The notes beneath the pieces are model-generated. The model did no database searches. It was not told the DNA's origin and saw nothing but the letters and a program-made list of their open reading frames with translations. Position numbers and translations under genes: made by a program. Positions 7,088 to 46,595 of a DNA stretch of 46,959 nucleotides are shown here, in pieces; positions within the stretch are counted from its first letter, which is position 1, and each line of letters begins with the position of its first letter. Origin of the DNA: a virus (lineage: Duplodnaviria; Heunggongvirae; Uroviricota; Caudoviricetes); IMG/VR virus record IMGVR_UViG_2681813454_000002, positions 1 through 46,959 of that record; one strand, given 5' to 3'.

Positions 7088-7116
7088 GAGATGATACCTC
7101 AGTTACGAACTTTGTT

Positions 7117-7170
7117 TTATGGTAACTAAGGTATCAAGGTGTGGCAAGTGATTTTTGATACTTTGGTTTC
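7117..7170. promoter_or_regulatory. OL-like operator/promoter region (TTGATAC repeats)
   Basis: Two TTGATAC(C/T)-type motifs in opposite orientation (7130-7137 minus strand, 7155-7166 plus strand) between the cI stop and the first leftward gene. Confidence 0.4.
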
Positions 7171-7190
7171 TTTTTGTGTTTTGTGTCTGG

Positions 7191-7847
7191 TCAGAAAATA
7201 TCCCACCTGGCATCAACCACAACACCTACTATTTCGCAATCATTGTCCATTTCTATGATTGGATATTGTGGATTAAGGGGCTTTAGAAACGCCTTTCCCA
7301 TGTCAGAAATATATTTTTTGAATGTTGCTTCATTGGTCGATTTTTTTCTGGCGATGACGTAACACCCTGAAAAAACTTCTTTATCTGGGTTGACAAGGAT
7401 CGACATTCCTTCAGGAAATGTTATTCCTACGGGCGAAGTCATTGAGTCTCCGTGCACTTCCAGCCAGAACCCCCTCTCACCAGCGTATTTTACAGAATGC
7501 CTCCAATTATCCTGATCATACATGTTGTAGTCATCACCAGAAGTTGCGAATAATCCTGCCTGAACCCAGTTAATTACAGGGTAAGAGTGTGCTGTGTCTC
7601 TCTGTGGGCAGCTCTTAACATTATTTTCCCAATGCTTATCTTTTTCATCTCCGTTCTGAAGCCACTGCGGTGAACACCGCAGTGCAGCTGCAACTTTAAA
7701 AAGGGTGTCACCGTTGAAACTTTTTGTAAGGCCTTGCTCGGCTTTACTGATTGCAACTCTGGTGATCCCAGCTTTTTTAGCCAACGCATCTTGTGTTAAC
7801 CCAGCTTTTTGCCGTGCGTTGATGAGACGTTCACCTAAAGACTTCAT
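7191..7847 (-). CDS. cI: CI-like prophage repressor (HTH plus S24 LexA-like autocleavage domain, 218 aa)
   Basis: N-terminal HTH (LTQDALAKKAGITRVAISKAEQG) and C-terminal S24-peptidase-like domain; ATG at 7845-7847 with RBS GAGGAG; divergent from the rightward genes. Confidence 0.85.
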   Translation of the reverse strand: MKSLGERLINARQKAGLTQDALAKKAGITRVAISKAEQGLTKSFNGDTLFKVAAALRCSPQWLQNGDEKDKHWENNVKSCPQRDTAHSYPVINWVQAGLFATSGDDYNMYDQDNWRHSVKYAGERGFWLEVHGDSMTSPVGITFPEGMSILVNPDKEVFSGCYVIARKKSTNEATFKKYISDMGKAFLKPLNPQYPIIEMDNDCEIVGVVVDARWDIF

Positions 7848-7861
7848 TTTTCTTCTCCTCT

Positions 7862-7955
7862 CATGGCTGTTGATACTAAAGTAACAGAATTTCTTGATAC
7901 TTTGGATTCCCGTGGTTAACATCGTTGGATAACAAAGTATCTGGTGTGAGACTAA
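7862..7955. promoter_or_regulatory. OR-like operator/promoter region (PRM/PR) with repeated TTGATAC half-sites
   Basis: TTGATACTAAAGTA at 7870, TTGATACTTTGG at 7894 and inverted GATAACAAAGTATC at 7928-7941, in the divergent intergenic region between cI and the rightward genes. Confidence 0.5.
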
Positions 7956-7958
7956 AGA

Positions 7959-8186
7959 ATGACCCTTTATGAAATATTAAAAATTCAATTTAAAACCAAT
8001 GCCGCTATTGGTCGCAGGTTCCCAAAGAAAGGAAGGCCTCGTGGCAGTCAAGGTGTTGGAAAGTGGAAAACGCGAGGTGTTCCGGAGGATGTTGCCATTC
8101 TTTGTCATCTGGATCCGAGCATTCCATATACACACCCAAGTCTAGCGAATACAGAAGATGACAAGCCCACAGGAGACCAACAATGA
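7959..8186 (+). CDS. Hypothetical ORF in the Cro position (75 aa), doubtful
   Basis: Only ORF between OR and the Rha gene; basic and Pro/Gly-rich, no HTH recognisable; weak RBS. Confidence 0.2.
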   Translation: MTLYEILKIQFKTNAAIGRRFPKKGRPRGSQGVGKWKTRGVPEDVAILCHLDPSIPYTHPSLANTEDDKPTGDQQ

Positions 8187-8890
8187 ACACCGCAATTTTT
8201 AACGGCAAAGCATCCATGACCAGCGTTGAGATCGCAGAGCTGGTGGGTAAACGTCATGACAATGTGAAACGCACTATTGAAACATTAGCCAAAGGTGGCG
8301 TTGTCCGGTCTCCTCAAATTGAGGTTTCCGAAAGAATCAATAACTTAGGTTTTAAAGTTCAATATGAGCATTACCTGTTTGAAGGAGAACAAGGTAAGCG
8401 CGACAGCATCATTGTCGTCGCACAGCTCTGTCCTGAATTCACTGCTCGCCTGGTAGATCGCTGGCGCGAACTGGAAGAACAGATCCGTAAGCCAATGAGC
8501 GAAATCGAAATGGTTGCCGCGATGGCTCTTGAAGCCGTTCGCCAACAGAAACGGATCACTCAGGTGGAAGAAAAAGTCAGCCACGTTGCTGAAACAGTCG
8601 AGCAAATTAAAAAGGGCACTATTCGTGAGGGCTATGCCGGATATCGCCAACTGAAAGCAAAAACCGGTTTGTCAGATGATAAATGCCGCAATCTGGTGAA
8701 CGCCTATCAGATTCCTACAGACACCCATGAGTTCATGACGCCGGACGGATTGTTGTCACGTCGCGCAATTGTTGCTGTGGAACCGTTTATGGCTGCTTTT
8801 TATCGGGTTATGGAGGAAGCAGAACCGCGAGGGACTCGCTGGTATCACCCGAAAATGGGGTTATTTCAGGTTATTGGTTGGCAGCGGTGA
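8183..8890 (+). CDS. Rha-family phage regulatory protein / antirepressor-like (235 aa)
   Basis: N-terminus ..MTSVEIAELVGKRHDNVKRTIETL.. is typical of the Rha family; RBS GGAGA before the ATG. Confidence 0.75.
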   Translation: MNTAIFNGKASMTSVEIAELVGKRHDNVKRTIETLAKGGVVRSPQIEVSERINNLGFKVQYEHYLFEGEQGKRDSIIVVAQLCPEFTARLVDRWRELEEQIRKPMSEIEMVAAMALEAVRQQKRITQVEEKVSHVAETVEQIKKGTIREGYAGYRQLKAKTGLSDDKCRNLVNAYQIPTDTHEFMTPDGLLSRRAIVAVEPFMAAFYRVMEEAEPRGTRWYHPKMGLFQVIGWQR

Positions 8891-8913
8891 AAAAAAGCCG
8901 GGAGTAACCCGGC
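8890..8913 (-). terminator. Hairpin plus T-run, intrinsic terminator oriented for leftward transcription
   Basis: A7 then GCCGGG-AGTAA-CCCGGC on the plus strand; on the minus strand this is a stem-loop followed by U7. Confidence 0.35.
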
Positions 8914-9020
8914 TCACTCAACATCAATAACGGGGAGCTGTTTCGCATAAAACGGCTCCGAAACATCCAAGAACAGTTCTAAAGATATCAGCAGCTATAT
9001 GATCATTTCAAGACCAAATA

Positions 9021-9049
9021 TTGATTCTGCAATTTCGGGACGTTACACT
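9021..9049 (+). promoter_or_regulatory. Candidate sigma70 promoter (TTGATT-17 bp-TACACT)
   Basis: -35 at 9021-9026 and -10 at 9044-9049 with 17-bp spacing, in a noncoding region of about 400 bp. Confidence 0.3.
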
Positions 9050-9112
9050 GTCTCTGCACCTTATAAAGCGGGTGCCGGGGGTCGCAGCCCGGAATTGTCA
9101 ACGGCGATATAT

Positions 9113-9133
9113 GACGCGCCAGCGTCTTTTTTA
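9113..9133 (+). terminator. Intrinsic terminator (GACGC-GCCA-GCGTC plus T6)
   Basis: Perfect 5-bp GC-rich stem followed by TTTTTT, about 65 nt downstream of the candidate promoter. Confidence 0.45.
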
Positions 9134-9298
9134 TCGTCCGCGCTCACGCACGCCAGAATTATGGTGGGCTGGGCAGGGGAGCCGAAAGGCTCGCCGGTTT
9201 CCGTTGACGCCGGTACTGCGAACCCTGTTCAGTCTGCCACCAGTGAGTTTCGCAGCTCCGGTGGTGGAAGTTTTCCACAGTCAACGGAGGCTGCCATC

Positions 9299-9850
9299 AT
9301 GGCTACGATCCCAACCCTCACTCAACCTGAAATTGCCATCGTTGATGGTCAGGCTGTTACTTCATCCCTGGCTGTTGCCAACTTCTTCTCCAAGCGTCAT
9401 GACGATGTACTGAAAAAGATCCGCACGCTTGAATGCTCCGCATCATTCACTGCCCGCAATTTTTCGGTGAGTGATTACACCGATTGCACAGGCCGCAAAC
9501 TACCTTGCTATCAAATCACCCGTGATGGCTTCGCGTTCCTTGCTATGGGCTTTACTGGCAAACGTGCAGCCCGGTTCAAAGAGGCATACATCAACGCCTT
9601 TAACCTGATGGAGAAGAGTTTATCAGGTGCCGATGCGTCTGATATGTCAGCTGTCGCACGAAACGCCAGAGGCGTATACCTGCATTTGCGTGAAATCCAT
9701 CAAATCTGGACAAGCCAGCTTTATCCAATGCTTAAGGCCGTTGAATCTCCGCTGGCTAGCAAACTGTACGACCGTGTTGGTGATGCTGTTTTTGGCGCTG
9801 CACTTGTTGATTCCAGGCTGAATGGTTCTGACAAGGAGGTTCGCCCATGA
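9299..9850 (+). CDS. Second Rha-family protein (183 aa from the MATIPTL start)
   Basis: ATG at 9299 after ACGGAGG; ..AVANFFSKRHDDVLKKIRTL.. Rha-like N-terminal domain; the upstream in-frame extension from 8999 is low-complexity and probably untranslated. Confidence 0.7.
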   Translation: MATIPTLTQPEIAIVDGQAVTSSLAVANFFSKRHDDVLKKIRTLECSASFTARNFSVSDYTDCTGRKLPCYQITRDGFAFLAMGFTGKRAARFKEAYINAFNLMEKSLSGADASDMSAVARNARGVYLHLREIHQIWTSQLYPMLKAVESPLASKLYDRVGDAVFGAALVDSRLNGSDKEVRP

Positions 9851-10041
9851 TTAGTTACGAAATCATCATCTCCACTACGGAATACAGAAACGATGTATCA
9901 GTTCGCACGGATGTATCTGTCTGGCACCGTCGCTATAAATCCAGAAAAACAGCGGAACTGAAAGCGGCAGAGATGTGTGAAACCATCTCAATGAAAGGTA
10001 GCCCGGTTAAATACGTAACTACGGTGGAGGTGCGTCCATGA
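9847..10041 (+). CDS. Hypothetical protein (64 aa)
   Basis: RBS GGAGG before the ATG; ATGA overlap with the upstream gene. Confidence 0.5.
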   Translation: MISYEIIISTTEYRNDVSVRTDVSVWHRRYKSRKTAELKAAEMCETISMKGSPVKYVTTVEVRP

Positions 10042-10262
10042 TCCGCCACATCGTTAATTCCCTGTATCACCGATACAACCGTTGCCCCCGTGTGGGGCAG
10101 TGGTTCGCCACCAGCAACGGTCACGTTCTGCGGGTTTGCCTAGTCAACGCTGAAAGCCAGAAAGTCGTGTGCGAACTACAGGGGCGTAGCTACACCATCA
10201 GTTACCCTCTGGCGGTATTTCTGTCTGGAAAAATGTTTAAGCGTCTGGGAGGTGTGGCGTGA
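10038..10262 (+). CDS. Hypothetical protein (74 aa)
   Basis: RBS GGAGGTG; ATGA overlap coupling. Confidence 0.5.
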   Translation: MIRHIVNSLYHRYNRCPRVGQWFATSNGHVLRVCLVNAESQKVVCELQGRSYTISYPLAVFLSGKMFKRLGGVA

Positions 10263-10558
10263 ACTGTTTTCAGTTTGTGTGCGGATGTGCTTTCGATAAC
10301 CCGATTCAGCGCCTAATTATGTTGCGTGTTTTGATGTCGGGTTCTTCAGACGGTGAAGGCGAGAGAGTTATTGATCATCAGGTGCTTGCTGATTTCTGCT
10401 GTTGTTCTAAGCAAGCGATATTCAGGGAAACCCTGGCACTGGAAAGAGCTGGTTATCTTCATATCCGAAAAATTGCAACGCTTACTATTGATGCAAAAGC
10501 CAGACTACAACCTGCGCGTGGCTACACAATTCTCATGCCGCGGAAGGAGGTTGTATGA
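10259..10558 (+). CDS. Hypothetical protein (99 aa), possible DNA-binding protein
   Basis: GTG start after GGAGG; coupled to the downstream O-like gene by ATGA overlap. Confidence 0.45.
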   Translation: MNCFQFVCGCAFDNPIQRLIMLRVLMSGSSDGEGERVIDHQVLADFCCCSKQAIFRETLALERAGYLHIRKIATLTIDAKARLQPARGYTILMPRKEVV

Positions 10559-11541
10559 GCCGTTACGCCCCCACACCGGAAGTTATGGCTATTGGTCAAA
10601 TTAATATTTCCGGCAATGTTACACCTGCGAACTGGTGGAAATATATTCGACTACCCAGTGGGCGTCCGGATGCGACGGCTATCGCTCTGCTTTCAGAGAT
10701 CGTTTACTGGTACCGCCCGACAGAGGTCAGGGATGAGCACACCGGAGCGTTGCTGGGATATCGCAAGCGTTTTCAGGGCGACAAACTGCAAAGAAGCTAC
10801 CAGGCGTTTGCTGAGCAGTTTGGTTTCGGGAAAAGGGAAACCGCAGATGCGCTGAAGCGTCTGCGCGATGCAGGGTTTATTACTCTGGATTTACGCACGG
10901 TGGAAATGCTCGATGGGGTGAAATGCAGCAATATTTTGTTTGTCGGGATCAACCCACAGGCAATTGCGGTCATCACCACACCTTCTTCTGTTTCGCCAGA
11001 AAGTAACAGCAATAATGCAATCAGCGATACAGCTATTACGTTAAAACGGAACACCCCCCGACGTCATAACGGAACAGGGGATACGCCGAATGTTGATACA
11101 AATACAGAGATTACTACAGAGATTACAACGGAGACTAAAAACACTATTGATGCATCCGCTGACGCGTCTGCGCGTTCTGCCCGACAGGAATATTCACCGG
11201 AATTTGAACAGGCCTGGCAGGAATATCCCAAACGTGCTGGTGGCAATTCCAAGTCAGCGGCCTTCAAAGCCTGGAAAGCCCGTATCAGGGAGGGAATAAA
11301 ACCGGAGACCATGCTTGATGGCGTGAAGCGGTATGCCGCCTGGGTACGTGCTACAGGAAATACCGGCACACAGTTCGTGAAGCAGGCTGCGACGTTCTTT
11401 GGACCCGATCGTCACTTCGAAGATTACTGGCAACAGCCAGCCGCTCACGGAGGTGGGCGACAGCGACAGGTCGATGTCCTGGCTGGCCTGGGAGCCATGT
11501 CTGACAAATTCGGTAAATCCAGTAACAAATTGACATTCTGA
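10555..11541 (+). CDS. Replication initiation protein (O-like, with a conserved phage C-terminal domain)
   Basis: C-terminal ..EFEQAWQEYPKRAGGNSKSAAFKAWKARIREG.. block is typical of phage replication initiators; sits upstream of a DnaC-like gene. Confidence 0.7.
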   Translation: MSRYAPTPEVMAIGQINISGNVTPANWWKYIRLPSGRPDATAIALLSEIVYWYRPTEVRDEHTGALLGYRKRFQGDKLQRSYQAFAEQFGFGKRETADALKRLRDAGFITLDLRTVEMLDGVKCSNILFVGINPQAIAVITTPSSVSPESNSNNAISDTAITLKRNTPRRHNGTGDTPNVDTNTEITTEITTETKNTIDASADASARSARQEYSPEFEQAWQEYPKRAGGNSKSAAFKAWKARIREGIKPETMLDGVKRYAAWVRATGNTGTQFVKQAATFFGPDRHFEDYWQQPAAHGGGRQRQVDVLAGLGAMSDKFGKSSNKLTF

Positions 11542-11542
11542 G

Positions 11543-12451
11543 GTGACAGCGATGATGACGATTGACCAACGTGAGAAACAAACAAGACTACAGGCGCGAA
11601 TGGATGAGTTACGGGCAGAAATGGATGAGTTACGGGCAGAGATTGCATTTGCTCAGAAGGGCGAAAAGCCATGGCCTTATCGTTCCTGCCTGATGCGTGA
11701 AGGTCGCGGATATTGCGAAAAACACGGTAAATATCGTACGCATATACTGGTGTGGATCGATCGTAATGGCGAGGACAGAGAAAAAATTTCATGCTGCCCT
11801 GACTGCTTGATCGCTGAGGCCAGTGATTTGACCATGGAACTGTCGTCCCTCAAGGCGGAAGAACTGACTGATAACGCCGGAATTGCTCTGCGTTTTCGGG
11901 ACTGCGAGTTTGATAATTATCTGGAGGTTAATCCTGACGCAGCCAGAAATCTTGCGGCCTGTCGCCGCTATGCGGAGAACTGGCCAGATATGCTGGAGAA
12001 CGGTACCAGTCTTGTTATGACCGGCAGTTGCGGTACCGGGAAAAATCATCTGGCGGTATCAATGGCAAAACACATCATCCGTAACTATCTGGCCAGTGTG
12101 GAGATCACCGACGTGATGCGCCTTACCCGGGCTGTGAAAAACTGCTGGCGGAATGACAGTGAAAAAACAGCGGATGACGTCATTGAGCATTATGCGTCAC
12201 TGGATTTGCTGATTGTCGACGAAGTCGGCGTTCAGTTTGGCAGTGCGGCTGAAATGGCCATTTTGCAGGAAATTATCAATGCCCGGTATGAGGGTATTTT
12301 GCCAACTATCTTGATCAGCAATCTTTCACCGGAAGAATTGTGGGCGTTCATCAGTCCCCGGATTGCCGACAGGATCACCGATGGCGGGCGCAACTGGTTG
12401 TCGTTTAACTGGCCCAGCTACCGTTCTCGTATCGGAGGTGTTGCCGCATGA
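11543..12451 (+). CDS. DnaC-like helicase loader (AAA+ ATPase)
   Basis: Walker A TGSCGTGKNHLA and Walker B LLIVDEVG; the real start may be the ATG at 11552 (RBS GAGGTGA). Confidence 0.8.
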   Translation: MTAMMTIDQREKQTRLQARMDELRAEMDELRAEIAFAQKGEKPWPYRSCLMREGRGYCEKHGKYRTHILVWIDRNGEDREKISCCPDCLIAEASDLTMELSSLKAEELTDNAGIALRFRDCEFDNYLEVNPDAARNLAACRRYAENWPDMLENGTSLVMTGSCGTGKNHLAVSMAKHIIRNYLASVEITDVMRLTRAVKNCWRNDSEKTADDVIEHYASLDLLIVDEVGVQFGSAAEMAILQEIINARYEGILPTILISNLSPEELWAFISPRIADRITDGGRNWLSFNWPSYRSRIGGVAA

Positions 12452-46011: not shown

Positions 46012-46595
46012 TGGCATTCAGAATGAGTGAACAAGCACGGACCATAAAAATTTATAATCTGCTGGCCGGAACTAATGAATTTATTGGTGAAGGTGACGCA
46101 TATATTCCGCCTCATACAGGTCTGCCAGCAAACAGTACCGATATTGCACCACCAGATATTCCTGCTGGCTTTGTGGCTGTTTTCAACAGTGATGAGGCAT
46201 CGTGGCATCTCGTTGAAGACCATCGGGGTAAAACGGTTTATGACGTAGCGTCAGGGGACGAGTTATTTATTTCTGAACTCGGTCCGTTACCGGAAAATGT
46301 TACCTGGTTATCGCCGGAAGGGGAGTTTCAGAAGTGGAACGGCACAGCCTGGGTGAAGGATACGGAAGCAGAAAAACTGTTCCGGATCCGGGAGGCGGAA
46401 GAAACAAAAAACAACCTGATGCAGGTAGCCAGTGAGCATATTGCGCCGCTTCAGGATGCTGCAGATCTGGAAATTGCAACGGAGGAAGAAACCTCATTGC
46501 TGGAAGCCTGGAAAAAGTATCGGGTGTTGCTGAACCGTGTTGATACATCAACTGCACCTGATATTGAGTGGCCTACGAACCCTGTCAGGGAGTAA
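46011..46595 (+). CDS. tfa: Tail fiber assembly protein Tfa
   Basis: 194 aa, lambda Tfa-like ([24 protein letters not shown]..); TAATG overlap with stf. Confidence 0.9.

What the first reader, a model, noticed from the sequence alone, without database searches (positions are those of the whole stretch)
8890..9298. About 400-bp structured noncoding leader upstream of the second Rha gene, with a promoter-terminator pair
The sequence between the first Rha gene (stop 8890) and the credible Rha2 start (9299) has no protein-like ORF. It contains a near-consensus promoter (TTGATT-17-TACACT, 9021-9049), an intrinsic terminator about 65 nt downstream (GACGC-GCCA-GCGTC plus T6, 9113-9133), further hairpins (GAGCC-GAAA-GGCTC at 9179-9192) and, at its left end, a terminator oriented for leftward transcription (8890-8913). 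This implies either a short RNA of about 75 nt or an attenuator controlling Rha2. It is reminiscent of RNA-based control of antirepressor genes in P22 (sar) and P1 (c4), by analogy only.
Basis: partly seen in the sequence, partly recalled or inferred. Interest (0 to 1): 0.55.

Follow-up and report, generated by a model that had tools for sequence, protein, structure and literature searches.

The report
Known IsrK–C4 antisense-RNA immunity cassette
The "structured leader" in front of the second Rha gene is an ordinary copy of a well-known phage RNA switch (the IsrK/seqA decoy RNA plus the C4/CI antisense RNA of phages P1, P4 and Gifsy-1), which keeps an antirepressor-type gene silent by covering its ribosome-binding site.

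Summary
The promoter is weaker than described (8 of 12 consensus positions). An in-frame ORF (8999-9850) does run through the region.

The region is not an anonymous leader.

The C4 loop b' (9200-9208) and junction a' (9216-9222) are complementary to a1/b1 inside IsrK (9082-9087, 9097-9104). They are also complementary to a2/b2 (9249-9255, 9280-9288), and b2 covers the Rha2 Shine-Dalgarno sequence.

Across 60 allele-representative relatives these contacts and all helices are 96-97% paired, against 31-61% in slid controls, with many compensatory changes. The cassette aligns element for element with P1 immI (a1, b1, c4, a2, b2, icd start) and with Gifsy-1 isrK-orf45-anrP. Matches occur in 3292 of 5426 complete E. 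coli genomes.

The frame stays open without protein-like codon constraint, as in the P4 eta/kil nested genes. Databases annotate that frame as "Ash" or as an N-terminal domain.

Verdict: real, but already known. Low interest.

The parts
9021..9049 (+). Promoter of the cassette (P_isrK / P1c4 equivalent), TTGATT-17-TACACT. It predicts a transcription start near 9056.
   Evidence: Sequence read. It matches 8 of 12 positions and so is not listed by the scan. The hexamers are conserved at 70-99% in 146 relatives. The left border of similarity in many phages is at 9018-9020. It aligns with the annotated P1 promoter P1c4 and with the Gifsy-1 isrK locus.
9056..9132 (+). IsrK / P4 seqA-type short RNA of 77 nt: hairpin 1 (9056-9075), hairpin 2 (9076-9091) with a1 in its loop, single-stranded b1, and the intrinsic terminator (9113-9126 plus U6).
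   Evidence: Rfam RF01394 scores 58.7 bits against a gathering score of 50, over model positions 1-77. The terminator is listed. Helix covariation is shown.
9082..9087 (+). a1 site (TCGCAG), complementary to a' of C4.
   Evidence: the a1-a' helix is 97.1% paired, and 6 of 7 pairs show changes on both sides. It is collinear with the annotated a1 of P1.
9097..9104 (+). b1 site (GTCAACGG), complementary to the b' loop of C4.
   Evidence: the b1-b' helix is 96.4% paired, and 7 of 8 pairs show changes on both sides.
9157..9244 (+). C4 / P4 CI-type antisense RNA. It has a 17-bp basal stem (9162-9178 with 9223-9239), hairpin 1 (9179-9192), hairpin 2 (9193-9214) carrying b' in its loop (9200-9208), the a' junction (9216-9222), and an invariant CACC at 9238-9241.
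   Evidence: Rfam RF01695 scores 81.4 bits against a gathering score of 45. The minimum-energy fold equals the Rfam structure, with z = -4.84. The basal stem is 99.9% paired, with 10 pairs changed on both sides.
9161..9163 (+). Invariant AUG at the 5' end of C4. It is equivalent to the first start codon of Gifsy-1 orf45. Here it is in frame with Rha2, with no stop between them (46 codons).
   Evidence: Invariant in alignment A1. In frame without a stop in 134 of 146 relatives; the Gifsy-type AUGA overlap occurs in 4. The orf45 data are in PMC4825925.
9234..9267 (+). Alternative hairpin. The 3' strand of the C4 basal stem (9234-9241) pairs with GGUGGUGG (9260-9267) and presents a2 in the loop. 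This is mutually exclusive with the lower part of the C4 stem.
   Evidence: helix 3: 98.3% paired, with 4 pairs changed on both sides.
9249..9255 (+). a2 target site (TTCGCAG).
   Evidence: (helix 9, 93.1% paired).
9280..9289 (+). b2 target site (GTCAACGGA), overlapping the Shine-Dalgarno GGAG (9286-9289) of Rha2.
   Evidence: (helix 8, 92.8% paired, 7 of 9 pairs changed on both sides). In the minimum-energy fold of the whole leader, b'/a' pair with a2/b2 in cis.
9299..9850 (+). Rha2, the cargo gene (183 aa, Phage_pRha domain). It is the first of a chain of ORFs with 4-nt overlaps that leads into the replication genes.
   Evidence: Pfam E 5.3e-30. PHROG families for transcriptional regulator and anti-repressor. 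The start aligns with the P1 icd start. The ORF chain is seen.
8999..9850 (+). Long in-frame ORF (283 aa) that begins upstream of the internal promoter and runs through both RNA genes. This is the P4 eta/kil-type nested arrangement. Databases annotate it as the gene.
   Evidence: PGAP protein WP_024226990.1; Phage_ASH. The frame is open for at least 300 nt upstream of the cargo ATG in 133 of 146 relatives. Stops are depleted in this frame. There is no codon periodicity.
8888..8915 (-). Intrinsic terminator for leftward transcription, abutting the Rha1 stop codon. It belongs to the Rha1 3' flank, not to the cassette.
   Evidence: The stem is conserved, with loop changes, in a second spacer variant. 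Many relatives of the cassette lack this segment.

Best explanation
Positions 9021-9298 are a complete IsrK-C4 RNA immunity cassette. It is the lambdoid-prophage version of P1 immI (a1 b1 - c4 - a2 b2) and of P4 seqA - CI - seqC.

Shown here, by sequence, homology and covariation:
- One promoter (9021-9049) heads a 77-nt IsrK-type RNA that ends at a short, 5-bp terminator.
- Downstream lies a C4-type RNA.
- The loop b' and junction a' of C4 carry a two-part address. The same address is repeated in IsrK (a1/b1) and just before Rha2 (a2/b2), where b2 covers the Shine-Dalgarno sequence.

Inferred from the homologues:
- Most transcripts stop at the terminator and give free IsrK.
- Read-through transcripts carry C4. 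C4 is cut out, by RNase P in P1, as a stable tRNA-like RNA.
- In cis or in trans, C4 pairs with a2/b2 and blocks Rha2 translation. Polarity then probably also lowers expression of the translationally coupled genes downstream.
- IsrK carries the same address as the target and acts as a decoy. It occupies a'/b' of C4, frees the ribosome-binding site and turns Rha2 on, as IsrK turns on AnrP in Gifsy-1.
- The hypervariable a and b alleles set the immunity specificity.
- The open frame from ATG 8999 lets ribosomes on transcripts from an upstream promoter (presumably the early rightward promoter, running through cro and Rha1) read through the RNA genes. This would override both the terminator and C4, as eta translation does in P4.
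For: - Rfam matches above gathering scores for isrK and C4, full length and correctly ordered on the + strand.
- The same pair of hits, plus c4-a1b1, occurs at the experimentally studied Gifsy-1 locus.
- The window aligns element for element with P1 immI, whose record annotates P1c4, a1, b1, c4, a2, b2 and icd, and with Gifsy-1.
- The whole cassette is conserved as one unit: 190 of 223 nhmmer hits are full length.
- On an unfitted MAFFT alignment of 60 allele representatives, the intramolecular helices plus a'-a2 and b'-b2 are 96.2% paired, against 34-45% when slid. 37 pairs show changes on both sides.
- On the same alignment, a1-a', b1-b' and the alternative hairpin are 97.3% paired, against 31-61% when slid.
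- The variable positions are exactly the a and b elements. There are 61 allele combinations, and a and b alleles assort independently.
- The a-b site pair occurs only at the two predicted places in the window, where 0.01 is expected.
- The minimum-energy fold of the leader buries the Shine-Dalgarno sequence in the b'-b2 helix.
- Experimental precedent in Gifsy-1 (PMC4825925): the isrK promoter drives the downstream gene; translation is off unless IsrK is supplied in trans (more than 100-fold); compensatory mutations G28A/C162U and G31A/C159U lie in what I identify as a1 and a'; a processed stable RNA, STnc1160, lies downstream of IsrK.
- IsrK and STnc1160 are highly transcribed in lysogens under all conditions tested (PMC7067206).
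- IsrK = seqA and C4 = CI is stated in PMC3632133.
- The eta/kil logic is summarised in PMC10111431. The matching architecture here is shown.
Against: - No expression data exist for this locus. The promoter matches only 8 of 12 consensus positions.
- The isrK match (58.7 bits) is only modestly above its threshold of 50, and the IsrK fold alone is not unusually stable (z = -0.65).
- The c4-a1b1 model scores 17.2 bits, below its gathering score of 46.7.
- Rha2 is unrelated to Gifsy-1 AnrP, and its function as an antirepressor is assumed, not shown.
- The published Gifsy-1 model works through a separate orf45 whose stop overlaps the anrP start. That overlap is absent here, where the frame is fused.
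- ATG 8999 has no obvious Shine-Dalgarno sequence in this window, so the translational override may be weak in this copy.
- Each read-through transcript carries one decoy, one C4 and one target. Net repression therefore depends on RNA stabilities that I cannot assess.
Confidence: 0.85

Rival explanations
1. The region is simply coding sequence: the N-terminal 'Ash' domain of a 283-aa Rha protein (8999-9850), as PGAP, Pfam and PHROGs treat it, with no RNA function.
For: - The ORF is open and in frame.
- Pfam Phage_ASH matches at E 7.6e-14.
- Six PHROG families contain this segment as their N-terminal part.
- PGAP annotates the long protein.
- Frame-0 stops are depleted among the variable alleles: 14, against 73 and 43 in the other frames.
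Against: - Variation is flat across codon positions. Mean entropies are 0.735, 0.764 and 0.783. Variable columns number 43, 46 and 42 in the leader, against 33, 30 and 78 in the Rha2 coding sequence of the same sequences.
- Changes preserve base pairs, not residues.
- The same 'domain' precedes unrelated cargo proteins: Rha, Icd-like, Bro-N/P22_AR_C and ORF6N.
- A conserved promoter and terminator sit inside the ORF.
- The homologous RNAs are detected experimentally (PMC4825925, PMC7067206).
- An open frame is expected if only ribosome transit matters, as for P4 eta (PMC10111431).
Confidence: 0.03
2. P4-type output. The main effect of C4 pairing is premature transcription termination (Rho-dependent polarity after the translation block, or enhanced stopping at the IsrK terminator). 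On this reading the cassette chiefly gates transcription into Rha2 and the replication genes, rather than Rha2 translation as such.
For: - C4 and IsrK are the homologues of P4 CI and seqA (PMC3632133).
- b1 lies 8 nt before the terminator stem.
- Rha2 heads a chain of overlapping ORFs that runs into the O-like and DnaC-like genes.
- In Gifsy-1, IsrK in trans also raised the transcriptional fusion 8-fold (PMC4825925, Table 1B).
Against: - b2 overlaps the Shine-Dalgarno sequence in essentially every allele, and the conserved UCC of b' pairs with the GGA of the Shine-Dalgarno sequence. That points first to a translational block.
- In Gifsy-1 the translational effect (139-fold) far exceeds the transcriptional one (8-fold).
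- No Rho-dependent site can be identified from sequence.
- This explanation is compatible with the best explanation as a downstream consequence, rather than exclusive of it.
Confidence: 0.1
3. A plain leader attenuator or riboswitch-like element. On this reading the terminator at 9113-9132 is controlled by a protein or a small ligand, and the other hairpins are incidental.
For: A promoter-terminator pair lies upstream of a gene.
Against: - No riboswitch or leader family matches, even at E up to 10.
- The three-way covarying a/b code is explained only by RNA-RNA recognition.
- The region has full-length homology to characterised antisense systems.
Confidence: 0.02

Closest known systems
Gifsy-1 (Salmonella) isrK - orf45/STnc1160 - anrP locus (Hershko-Shalev et al. 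2016, PMC4825925)
   Same: - Same Rfam pair in the same order (isrK, then C4) and the same promoter position.
- The short terminated RNA and the read-through mRNA come from one promoter.
- IsrK is complementary to the C4 region. Their helix b-I is the a1/b1 - a'/b' pairing.
- An AUG lies at the 5' end of C4.
- The cargo is an antirepressor-type gene.
   Different: - The cargo is unrelated: Rha/Phage_pRha here, ORF6N AnrP there.
- Here the orf45-equivalent frame is fused in frame to the cargo, instead of ending in an AUGA overlap.
- The a and b alleles differ.
- The Gifsy-1 cassette lies after the Q-type antiterminator gene and is followed by isrJ. Here it lies between cro/Rha1 and the replication genes, with no isrJ.
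Phage P1/P7 immI operon: a1 b1 - c4 - a2 b2 - icd - ant1/ant2 (Citron and Schuster 1990, from memory; the elements are annotated in NC_005856)
   Same: - The promoter, a1, b1, T run, c4, a2, b2 and the first start codon all align in order.
- b2 lies over the ribosome-binding site of the first gene.
- Allele differences define immunity specificity. P1/P7 heteroimmunity is recalled from memory.
- Many sister cassettes carry an Icd-like first gene.
   Different: - There is no icd here. The Rha gene itself sits at the icd position.
- There is no C1 operator over the promoter, as far as can be seen.
- The host element is a lambdoid chromosomal prophage, not a plasmid prophage.
- RNase P processing was not tested.
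Satellite phage P4 immunity: seqA - CI (seqB) - seqC inside the nested eta/kil genes (summarised in PMC10111431 and PMC3632133; the primary papers are not held in the library)
   Same: - The RNA genes lie inside a long ORF that starts upstream of the internal constitutive promoter.
- The short product corresponds to the 3' part of the long one.
- Sites complementary to the immunity RNA (seqA, and seqC as recalled from memory) lie on either side of it, as a1/b1 and a2/b2 do here.
   Different: In P4 the documented output is transcription termination, and Kil is a killing peptide. Here the cargo is a Rha regulator, and the termination step is untested.
P22 sar antisense RNA controlling ant
   Same: A small RNA controls an antirepressor gene.
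   Different: sar is transcribed from the opposite strand across the ant start. Here all the RNAs are on the same strand, and the scan lists no opposite-strand promoter-like or terminator-like site over 9280-9300. The resemblance is functional only.

Membership tests
Rfam RF01695 C4 antisense RNA (P1 c4 / P4 CI) | Covariance-model score at or above the curated gathering score, full length. | tested here: met
   81.4 bits against 45, model positions 1-87 of 87, at 9157-9244 on the + strand.
Rfam RF01695 C4 antisense RNA (P1 c4 / P4 CI) | A long basal stem enclosing two hairpins, supported by compensatory changes. | tested here: met
   The basal stem is 99.9% paired with 10 pairs changed on both sides. 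Hairpin 1 is 99% paired, with all 5 pairs changed on both sides. The minimum-energy fold is identical to the model structure, z = -4.84.
P1 immI-type c4 system | Two elements of the RNA (a', b') are complementary to a2/b2 downstream, with b2 over the ribosome-binding site of the first gene. | tested here: met
   a' 9216-9222 pairs with a2 9249-9255. b' 9200-9208 pairs with b2 9280-9288, which overlaps GGAG at 9286-9289. These helices are 93% paired across 60 alleles with many changes on both sides. They are collinear with the annotated P1 sites.
P1 immI-type c4 system | A second copy of the targets (a1/b1) lies upstream of the RNA. | tested here: met
   a1 is at 9082-9087 and b1 at 9097-9104. 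They are 96-97% paired with a'/b'. However, the Rfam c4-a1b1 model scores only 17.2 bits against a gathering score of 46.7 here; the isrK model covers this segment instead.
P1 immI-type c4 system | The mature RNA is released from a longer transcript by RNase P. | not testable with these tools
   Only consistent sequence features can be seen: an invariant AUGG at the 5' end and CACC at the 3' end of the stem.
P1 immI-type c4 system | The controlled gene is an antirepressor that inactivates the prophage repressor. | tested here: inconclusive
   Rha2 has only a Phage_pRha domain. It hits PHROG families named transcriptional regulator or anti-repressor.
Rfam RF01394 isrK (P4 seqA homologue) | Covariance-model score at or above the gathering score, full length, ending in an intrinsic terminator. 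| tested here: met
   58.7 bits against 50, model positions 1-77 of 77, at 9056-9132. The terminator is listed. The T run is invariant in 60 relatives.
Gifsy-1 IsrK mechanism (PMC4825925) | A separate upstream ORF (orf45) whose stop codon overlaps the cargo start (AUGA), giving translational coupling. | tested here: not met
   AUG 9161 is in frame with AUG 9299 and no stop lies between them. The same holds in 134 of 146 relatives, and the AUGA overlap occurs in only 4.
Gifsy-1 IsrK mechanism (PMC4825925) | The short RNA activates translation of its own read-through mRNA in trans. | not testable with these tools
   The required complementarity is present. The activity itself needs reporter fusions.
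P4 eta/kil nested-gene arrangement | A long ORF starts upstream of the internal promoter, runs through the RNA genes, and is in frame with the short product. | tested here: met
   The ORF 8999-9850 encloses the promoter at 9021-9049. The frame is open for at least 300 nt upstream of the cargo ATG in 133 of 146 relatives, and in 70 of them the first in-frame ATG lies 19-40 nt before the -35. Some relatives have a strong Shine-Dalgarno sequence there or an overlap with the upstream stop codon.
Pfam PF10554 Phage_ASH (protein family) | HMM score above the curated cut-off. | tested here: met
   52.5 bits against 26, residues 16-99 of the translation of 8999-9298.
Pfam PF10554 Phage_ASH (protein family) | Evolution as a protein: an excess of third-codon-position change and conserved residues. 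| tested here: not met
   Variation is flat over codon positions, and changes are compensatory for RNA pairing.
P22 sar-type cis-antisense control | An RNA transcribed from the opposite strand across the start of the target gene. | tested here: not met
   The scan lists no minus-strand promoter-like or terminator-like site over 9250-9320. All conserved structure is on the + strand.

The most novel reading that the evidence does not exclude
Two readings that the evidence does not exclude:

1. The a and b elements form a combinatorial two-key RNA address: about 20 a' alleles, about 30 b' alleles and 61 observed combinations. The cassette occurs in 3292 of 5426 complete E. coli genomes, at up to 9 places per genome, on prophages, satellites and P1-type plasmids. 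C4 and IsrK RNAs from different resident elements could then repress or induce one another in an allele-specific network. The tandem cassettes seen in single phages are kept different in at least one of the two alleles.

2. The widespread 'Ash' protein family, and several PHROG 'N-terminal domains', would be by-products of a frame kept open only so that ribosomes can run through the RNA genes.
Probability: 0.3. Interest if true: 0.5.

Novelty: already known. Interest (0 to 1): 0.2.

Why it matters
- For this window, it replaces 'hypothetical N-terminal extension / unknown leader' with a defined regulatory module. The module predicts when Rha2, and possibly the replication genes behind it, are expressed.
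- It shows that current annotation is wrong or at best incomplete here. PGAP gives a 283-aa Rha protein, 'ash family protein' elsewhere, and no ncRNA features.
- More generally, the cassette is a compact natural set of orthogonal RNA-RNA address pairs attached to antirepressor-type genes. That bears on prophage induction, superinfection immunity and cross-talk among the several prophages of pathogenic E. coli.
- None of this is new in kind. P1 c4, P4 CI/seqA and Gifsy-1 IsrK established the system.

Tried and rejected
1. A third a-like element (TTTCGCA, 8941-8947) in the Rha1-isrK spacer, or an a' mimic on a leftward RNA. It is not conserved in the second spacer variant, and it does not follow the a allele of the adjoining cassette. 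Dropped.
2. Unrestricted duplex and cofold energies of C4 with IsrK or with the downstream segment. They were not distinguishable from shuffles (-50.2 against -43.2 ± 5.0, and -55.8 against -48.0 ± 5.5), and cofold gained less than 1 kcal/mol. They are uninformative for loop-loop contacts, so I relied on covariation instead.
3. Homology of Rha2 to Gifsy-1 AnrP. None was found (E 2.3).
4. Other Rfam families over 8700-9500 at E up to 10. Only sub-threshold, terminator-driven matches appeared on the minus strand: sroD at 24.5 bits, plus PrrF, SorX and SorY.
5. NCBIfam has no model for the leader translation on its own.
6. The primary P4 papers (Forti 1999, Sabbattini 1995) could not be read. The eta/kil logic is therefore cited from the summary in PMC10111431 and from memory.
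7. I did not predict a structure for the 'Ash' segment. The flat codon-position pattern already answers the coding question well enough.
Full report
**Observation**

- TTGATT (9021-9026), 17 nt, TACACT (9044-9049);
- the terminator GACGC-GCCA-GCGTC followed by six T (9113-9132);
- the hairpin GAGCC-GAAA-GGCTC (9179-9192);
- a terminator oriented for leftward transcription at 8915-8895, with its T run reaching the Rha1 stop codon.

The pattern scan lists both terminators. It does not list the promoter, which matches only 8 of 12 consensus positions. An ORF (8999-9850) does run through the whole region in frame with Rha2. Its first 100 residues hit Pfam Phage_ASH at E 7.6e-14.

**What it is**

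An Rfam scan of the window puts two curated families on the region, both above their gathering scores, full length and on the + strand:
- isrK (RF01394) at 9056-9132, 58.7 bits against 50.
- C4 antisense RNA (RF01695) at 9157-9244, 81.4 bits against 45.

The C4 segment folds on its own into exactly the model structure, with z = -4.84.

By direct reading, the loop of C4 hairpin 2 (b', 9200-9208) is complementary to GTCAACGG at 9097-9104, inside IsrK. It is also complementary to GTCAACGGA at 9280-9288, which overlaps the GGAG Shine-Dalgarno sequence of Rha2 (ATG at 9299).

The C4 junction a' (CUGCGAA, 9216-9222) is complementary to TCGCAG at 9082-9087, in the loop of IsrK hairpin 2. It is also complementary to TTCGCAG at 9249-9255.

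The combination TCGCAG-N(8-35)-GTCAACGG occurs in the 47-kb window only at these two places, where 0.01 is expected by chance.

**Comparative test**

I collected 200 IMG/VR loci. One set was found through the Rha2 protein and the other through a C4 core DNA pattern. Searching them with window 9018-9310 gave 223 hits, of which 190 were full length. After extraction and removal of duplicates this left 146 unique sequences, at 49-100% identity to the window over the extracted segments. The promoter, IsrK, C4, a2/b2 and the start codon therefore travel as one cassette.

In GenBank phages many matches begin at query position 128-130, which is window 9018-9020, just before the -35.

Conservation is high everywhere except in six short blocks, and those blocks are exactly a1, b1, b', a', a2 and b2. 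Tabulating them gives 61 allele combinations. In these the three copies of a and the three copies of b change together, while a and b alleles assort independently.

I then counted pairs on a MAFFT alignment of 60 allele representatives that had not been fitted to any structure (A1).
- All intramolecular helices plus b'-b2 and a'-a2 are 96.2% paired, against 34-45% when the partners are slid. 37 pairs show changes on both sides.
- a1-a', b1-b' and an alternative hairpin are 97.3% paired, against 31-61% when slid. In the alternative hairpin, 9234-9241 pairs with 9260-9267, a2 sits in the loop, and the pairing excludes the lower part of the C4 stem.

**Link to the characterised systems**

- **Gifsy-1.** The intergenic region between antQ and anrP gives the same Rfam hits in the same order (isrK, c4-a1b1, C4, then isrJ after anrP) and aligns with the window leader.
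- **P1.** The GenBank record of P1 annotates promoter P1c4, a1, b1, c4, a2, b2 and icd. These align one after another with the elements deduced here, and the icd start aligns with the Rha2 start.
- **P4.** Barquist et al. state that IsrK and C4 are the structural homologues of P4 seqA and CI, and that some lambdoid prophages carry this 'IsrK-C4 immunity system' (PMC3632133).
- **Experiments in Gifsy-1.** Hershko-Shalev et al. showed the following (PMC4825925).
  - The isrK promoter drives the downstream antirepressor-like gene.
  - The read-through mRNA is translationally silent.
  - IsrK supplied in trans activates it more than 100-fold.
  - Compensatory mutations support a helix between the middle of IsrK and the region they called orf45. 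I identify this helix as a1-a'.
  - A processed stable RNA, STnc1160, lies downstream of IsrK.
- **Expression in lysogens.** IsrK and STnc1160 are highly expressed in lysogens under all conditions examined (PMC7067206).

**Mechanism proposed for this copy**

What is shown here is the architecture, the homology and the conserved pairings. The rest is inferred from the homologues.

1. P_isrK is active in the lysogen.
2. Most transcripts end at the short terminator and yield IsrK.
3. Read-through transcripts yield C4. C4 pairs with a2/b2, in cis in the precursor or in trans after processing, and occludes the Rha2 ribosome-binding site. The minimum-energy fold of 9056-9310 does bury the Shine-Dalgarno sequence in the b'-b2 helix.
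4. IsrK carries the same address as the target. It competes for a'/b' and relieves the block.
5. Rha2 is the first of a chain of ORFs with 4-nt overlaps that leads into the O-like and DnaC-like genes. A translational block may therefore also lower transcription of those genes through polarity, which is the P4-type output. This step is untested.

**Coding or non-coding**

The frame of Rha2 stays open across 9056-9298 in 135 of 146 relatives, whereas the other two frames usually contain stops.

Among distinct alleles of the variable blocks, stops are depleted in this frame: 14, against 73 and 43.

The frame remains open for at least 300 nt upstream of the cargo ATG in 133 of 146 relatives. In 70 of them the first in-frame ATG lies 19-40 nt before the -35. 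In some relatives that ATG has a strong Shine-Dalgarno sequence or overlaps the stop of the upstream gene.

Yet variation shows no codon periodicity. Entropies by codon position are 0.735, 0.764 and 0.783. In eight collinear relatives the variable columns number 43, 46 and 42 in the leader, against 33, 30 and 78 in the Rha2 coding sequence.

The same 'N-terminal domain' also precedes unrelated cargo proteins: Rha, Icd-like, Bro-N/P22_AR_C and ORF6N.

The simplest reading is the P4 eta/kil arrangement. The RNA genes lie inside an ORF that is translated only on transcripts from an upstream promoter, and what matters is ribosome transit, which overrides termination and immunity, rather than the peptide (PMC10111431).

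Pfam Phage_ASH, the PGAP names 'ash family protein' and 'Rha family phage regulatory protein' (283 aa), and six PHROG families therefore describe this open frame rather than a conserved protein domain. In this window ATG 8999 has no obvious Shine-Dalgarno sequence, so the override may be weak here.

**Differences from the closest relatives**

- The cargo is a Rha-family protein unrelated to AnrP, and there is no icd.
- The orf45-equivalent AUG (9161) is fused in frame to Rha2 instead of ending in an AUGA overlap. This is the majority state: 134 of 146, against 4.
- The cassette sits between cro/Rha1 and the replication genes, not after Q.

**Prevalence and novelty**

The window is an E. coli lambdoid prophage that is 100% identical to several complete genomes over 7100-11600. 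Matches to the cassette occur in 3292 of 5426 complete E. coli genomes, at up to 9 places per genome, with 355 places on plasmids.

This is a known system found with standard models, so novelty is 'already known' and interest is low. Two things are perhaps under-described: the size of the combinatorial a/b repertoire, and the systematic annotation of the leader as protein.

**Left end of the finding**

The leftward terminator belongs to the 3' flank of Rha1, not to the cassette. Together with a promoter-like site on the minus strand (TTGAAA-18-TATCTT, 9011-8982) it could define a leftward RNA of about 85 nt. That RNA would fold well, with z = -3.4. Only the terminator and the -35 are conserved in a second spacer variant, and no Rfam family matches. 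This remains a side observation.

Noticed in passing
window 8888-9011, minus strand: Candidate leftward small RNA of about 85 nt, divergent from P_isrK. It has a promoter-like site TTGAAA-18-TATCTT with a TG extension (9011-8982), an internal hairpin, and an intrinsic terminator (8915-8895 plus U7) that ends at the Rha1 stop codon. It folds with z = -3.4. The terminator and the -35 are conserved in a second spacer variant, but the body is not. No Rfam family matches (sroD at 24.5 bits, below its threshold).
   Followed up: partly
window 18020-19022: Three tRNA genes (18020-18266) are followed by two copies of the sRNA family STnc100 (18345-18535 and 18813-19022). An IS009 RNA match lies at 46354-46552. 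I saw no ORF of 110 aa or more between about 17.9 and 19.9 kb, where related Stx2a phages carry stx.
   Followed up: no
window 9299-12451: Rha2 starts a chain of ORFs with 4-nt overlaps (9847-10041, 10038-10262, 10259-10558, 10555-11541 O-like, then 11543-12451, annotated as an ATP-binding protein). The RNA cassette therefore sits at the head of the replication-gene block, where lambda has cII and tR1.
   Followed up: partly
L027 (1061 and 1717), L059 (698 and 1117), L073 (408 and 1720), L166 (4032 and 10610): Some phages carry two cassettes, in three cases about 420-1300 bp apart. The two copies differ in the a allele, the b allele or both, so they look mutually orthogonal.
   Followed up: partly
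E. coli complete genomes; window 8999-9298: PGAP names the translated leader 'ash family protein', names the small first genes of sister cassettes 'host cell division inhibitor Icd-like protein', and annotates no C4 or isrK RNA. Six PHROG families include the leader translation as an N-terminal segment. This is likely a systematic annotation artefact of an ORF kept open over RNA genes.
   Followed up: partly
window 9290-9325 and the cargo genes of related loci: The first 7 or so codons (MATxPTL, or MATHLTL / MATVPAL) and the GCCAUCAUGGC sequence around the start codon are conserved in four of the six cargo groups, which are unrelated to one another in sequence. The cassette's right border therefore lies inside the cargo ORF, and the start codon sits in a small conserved inverted repeat.
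   Followed up: no
window 7191-8890: A LexA/S24-family repressor gene (7191-7922, minus strand) is divergent from a 75-aa cro-like ORF (7959-8186). The stop of that ORF overlaps the start of Rha1 (8183-8890; PHROG anti-repressor Ant, E 1.5e-48). Rha1 has no RNA cassette of its own.
   Followed up: no
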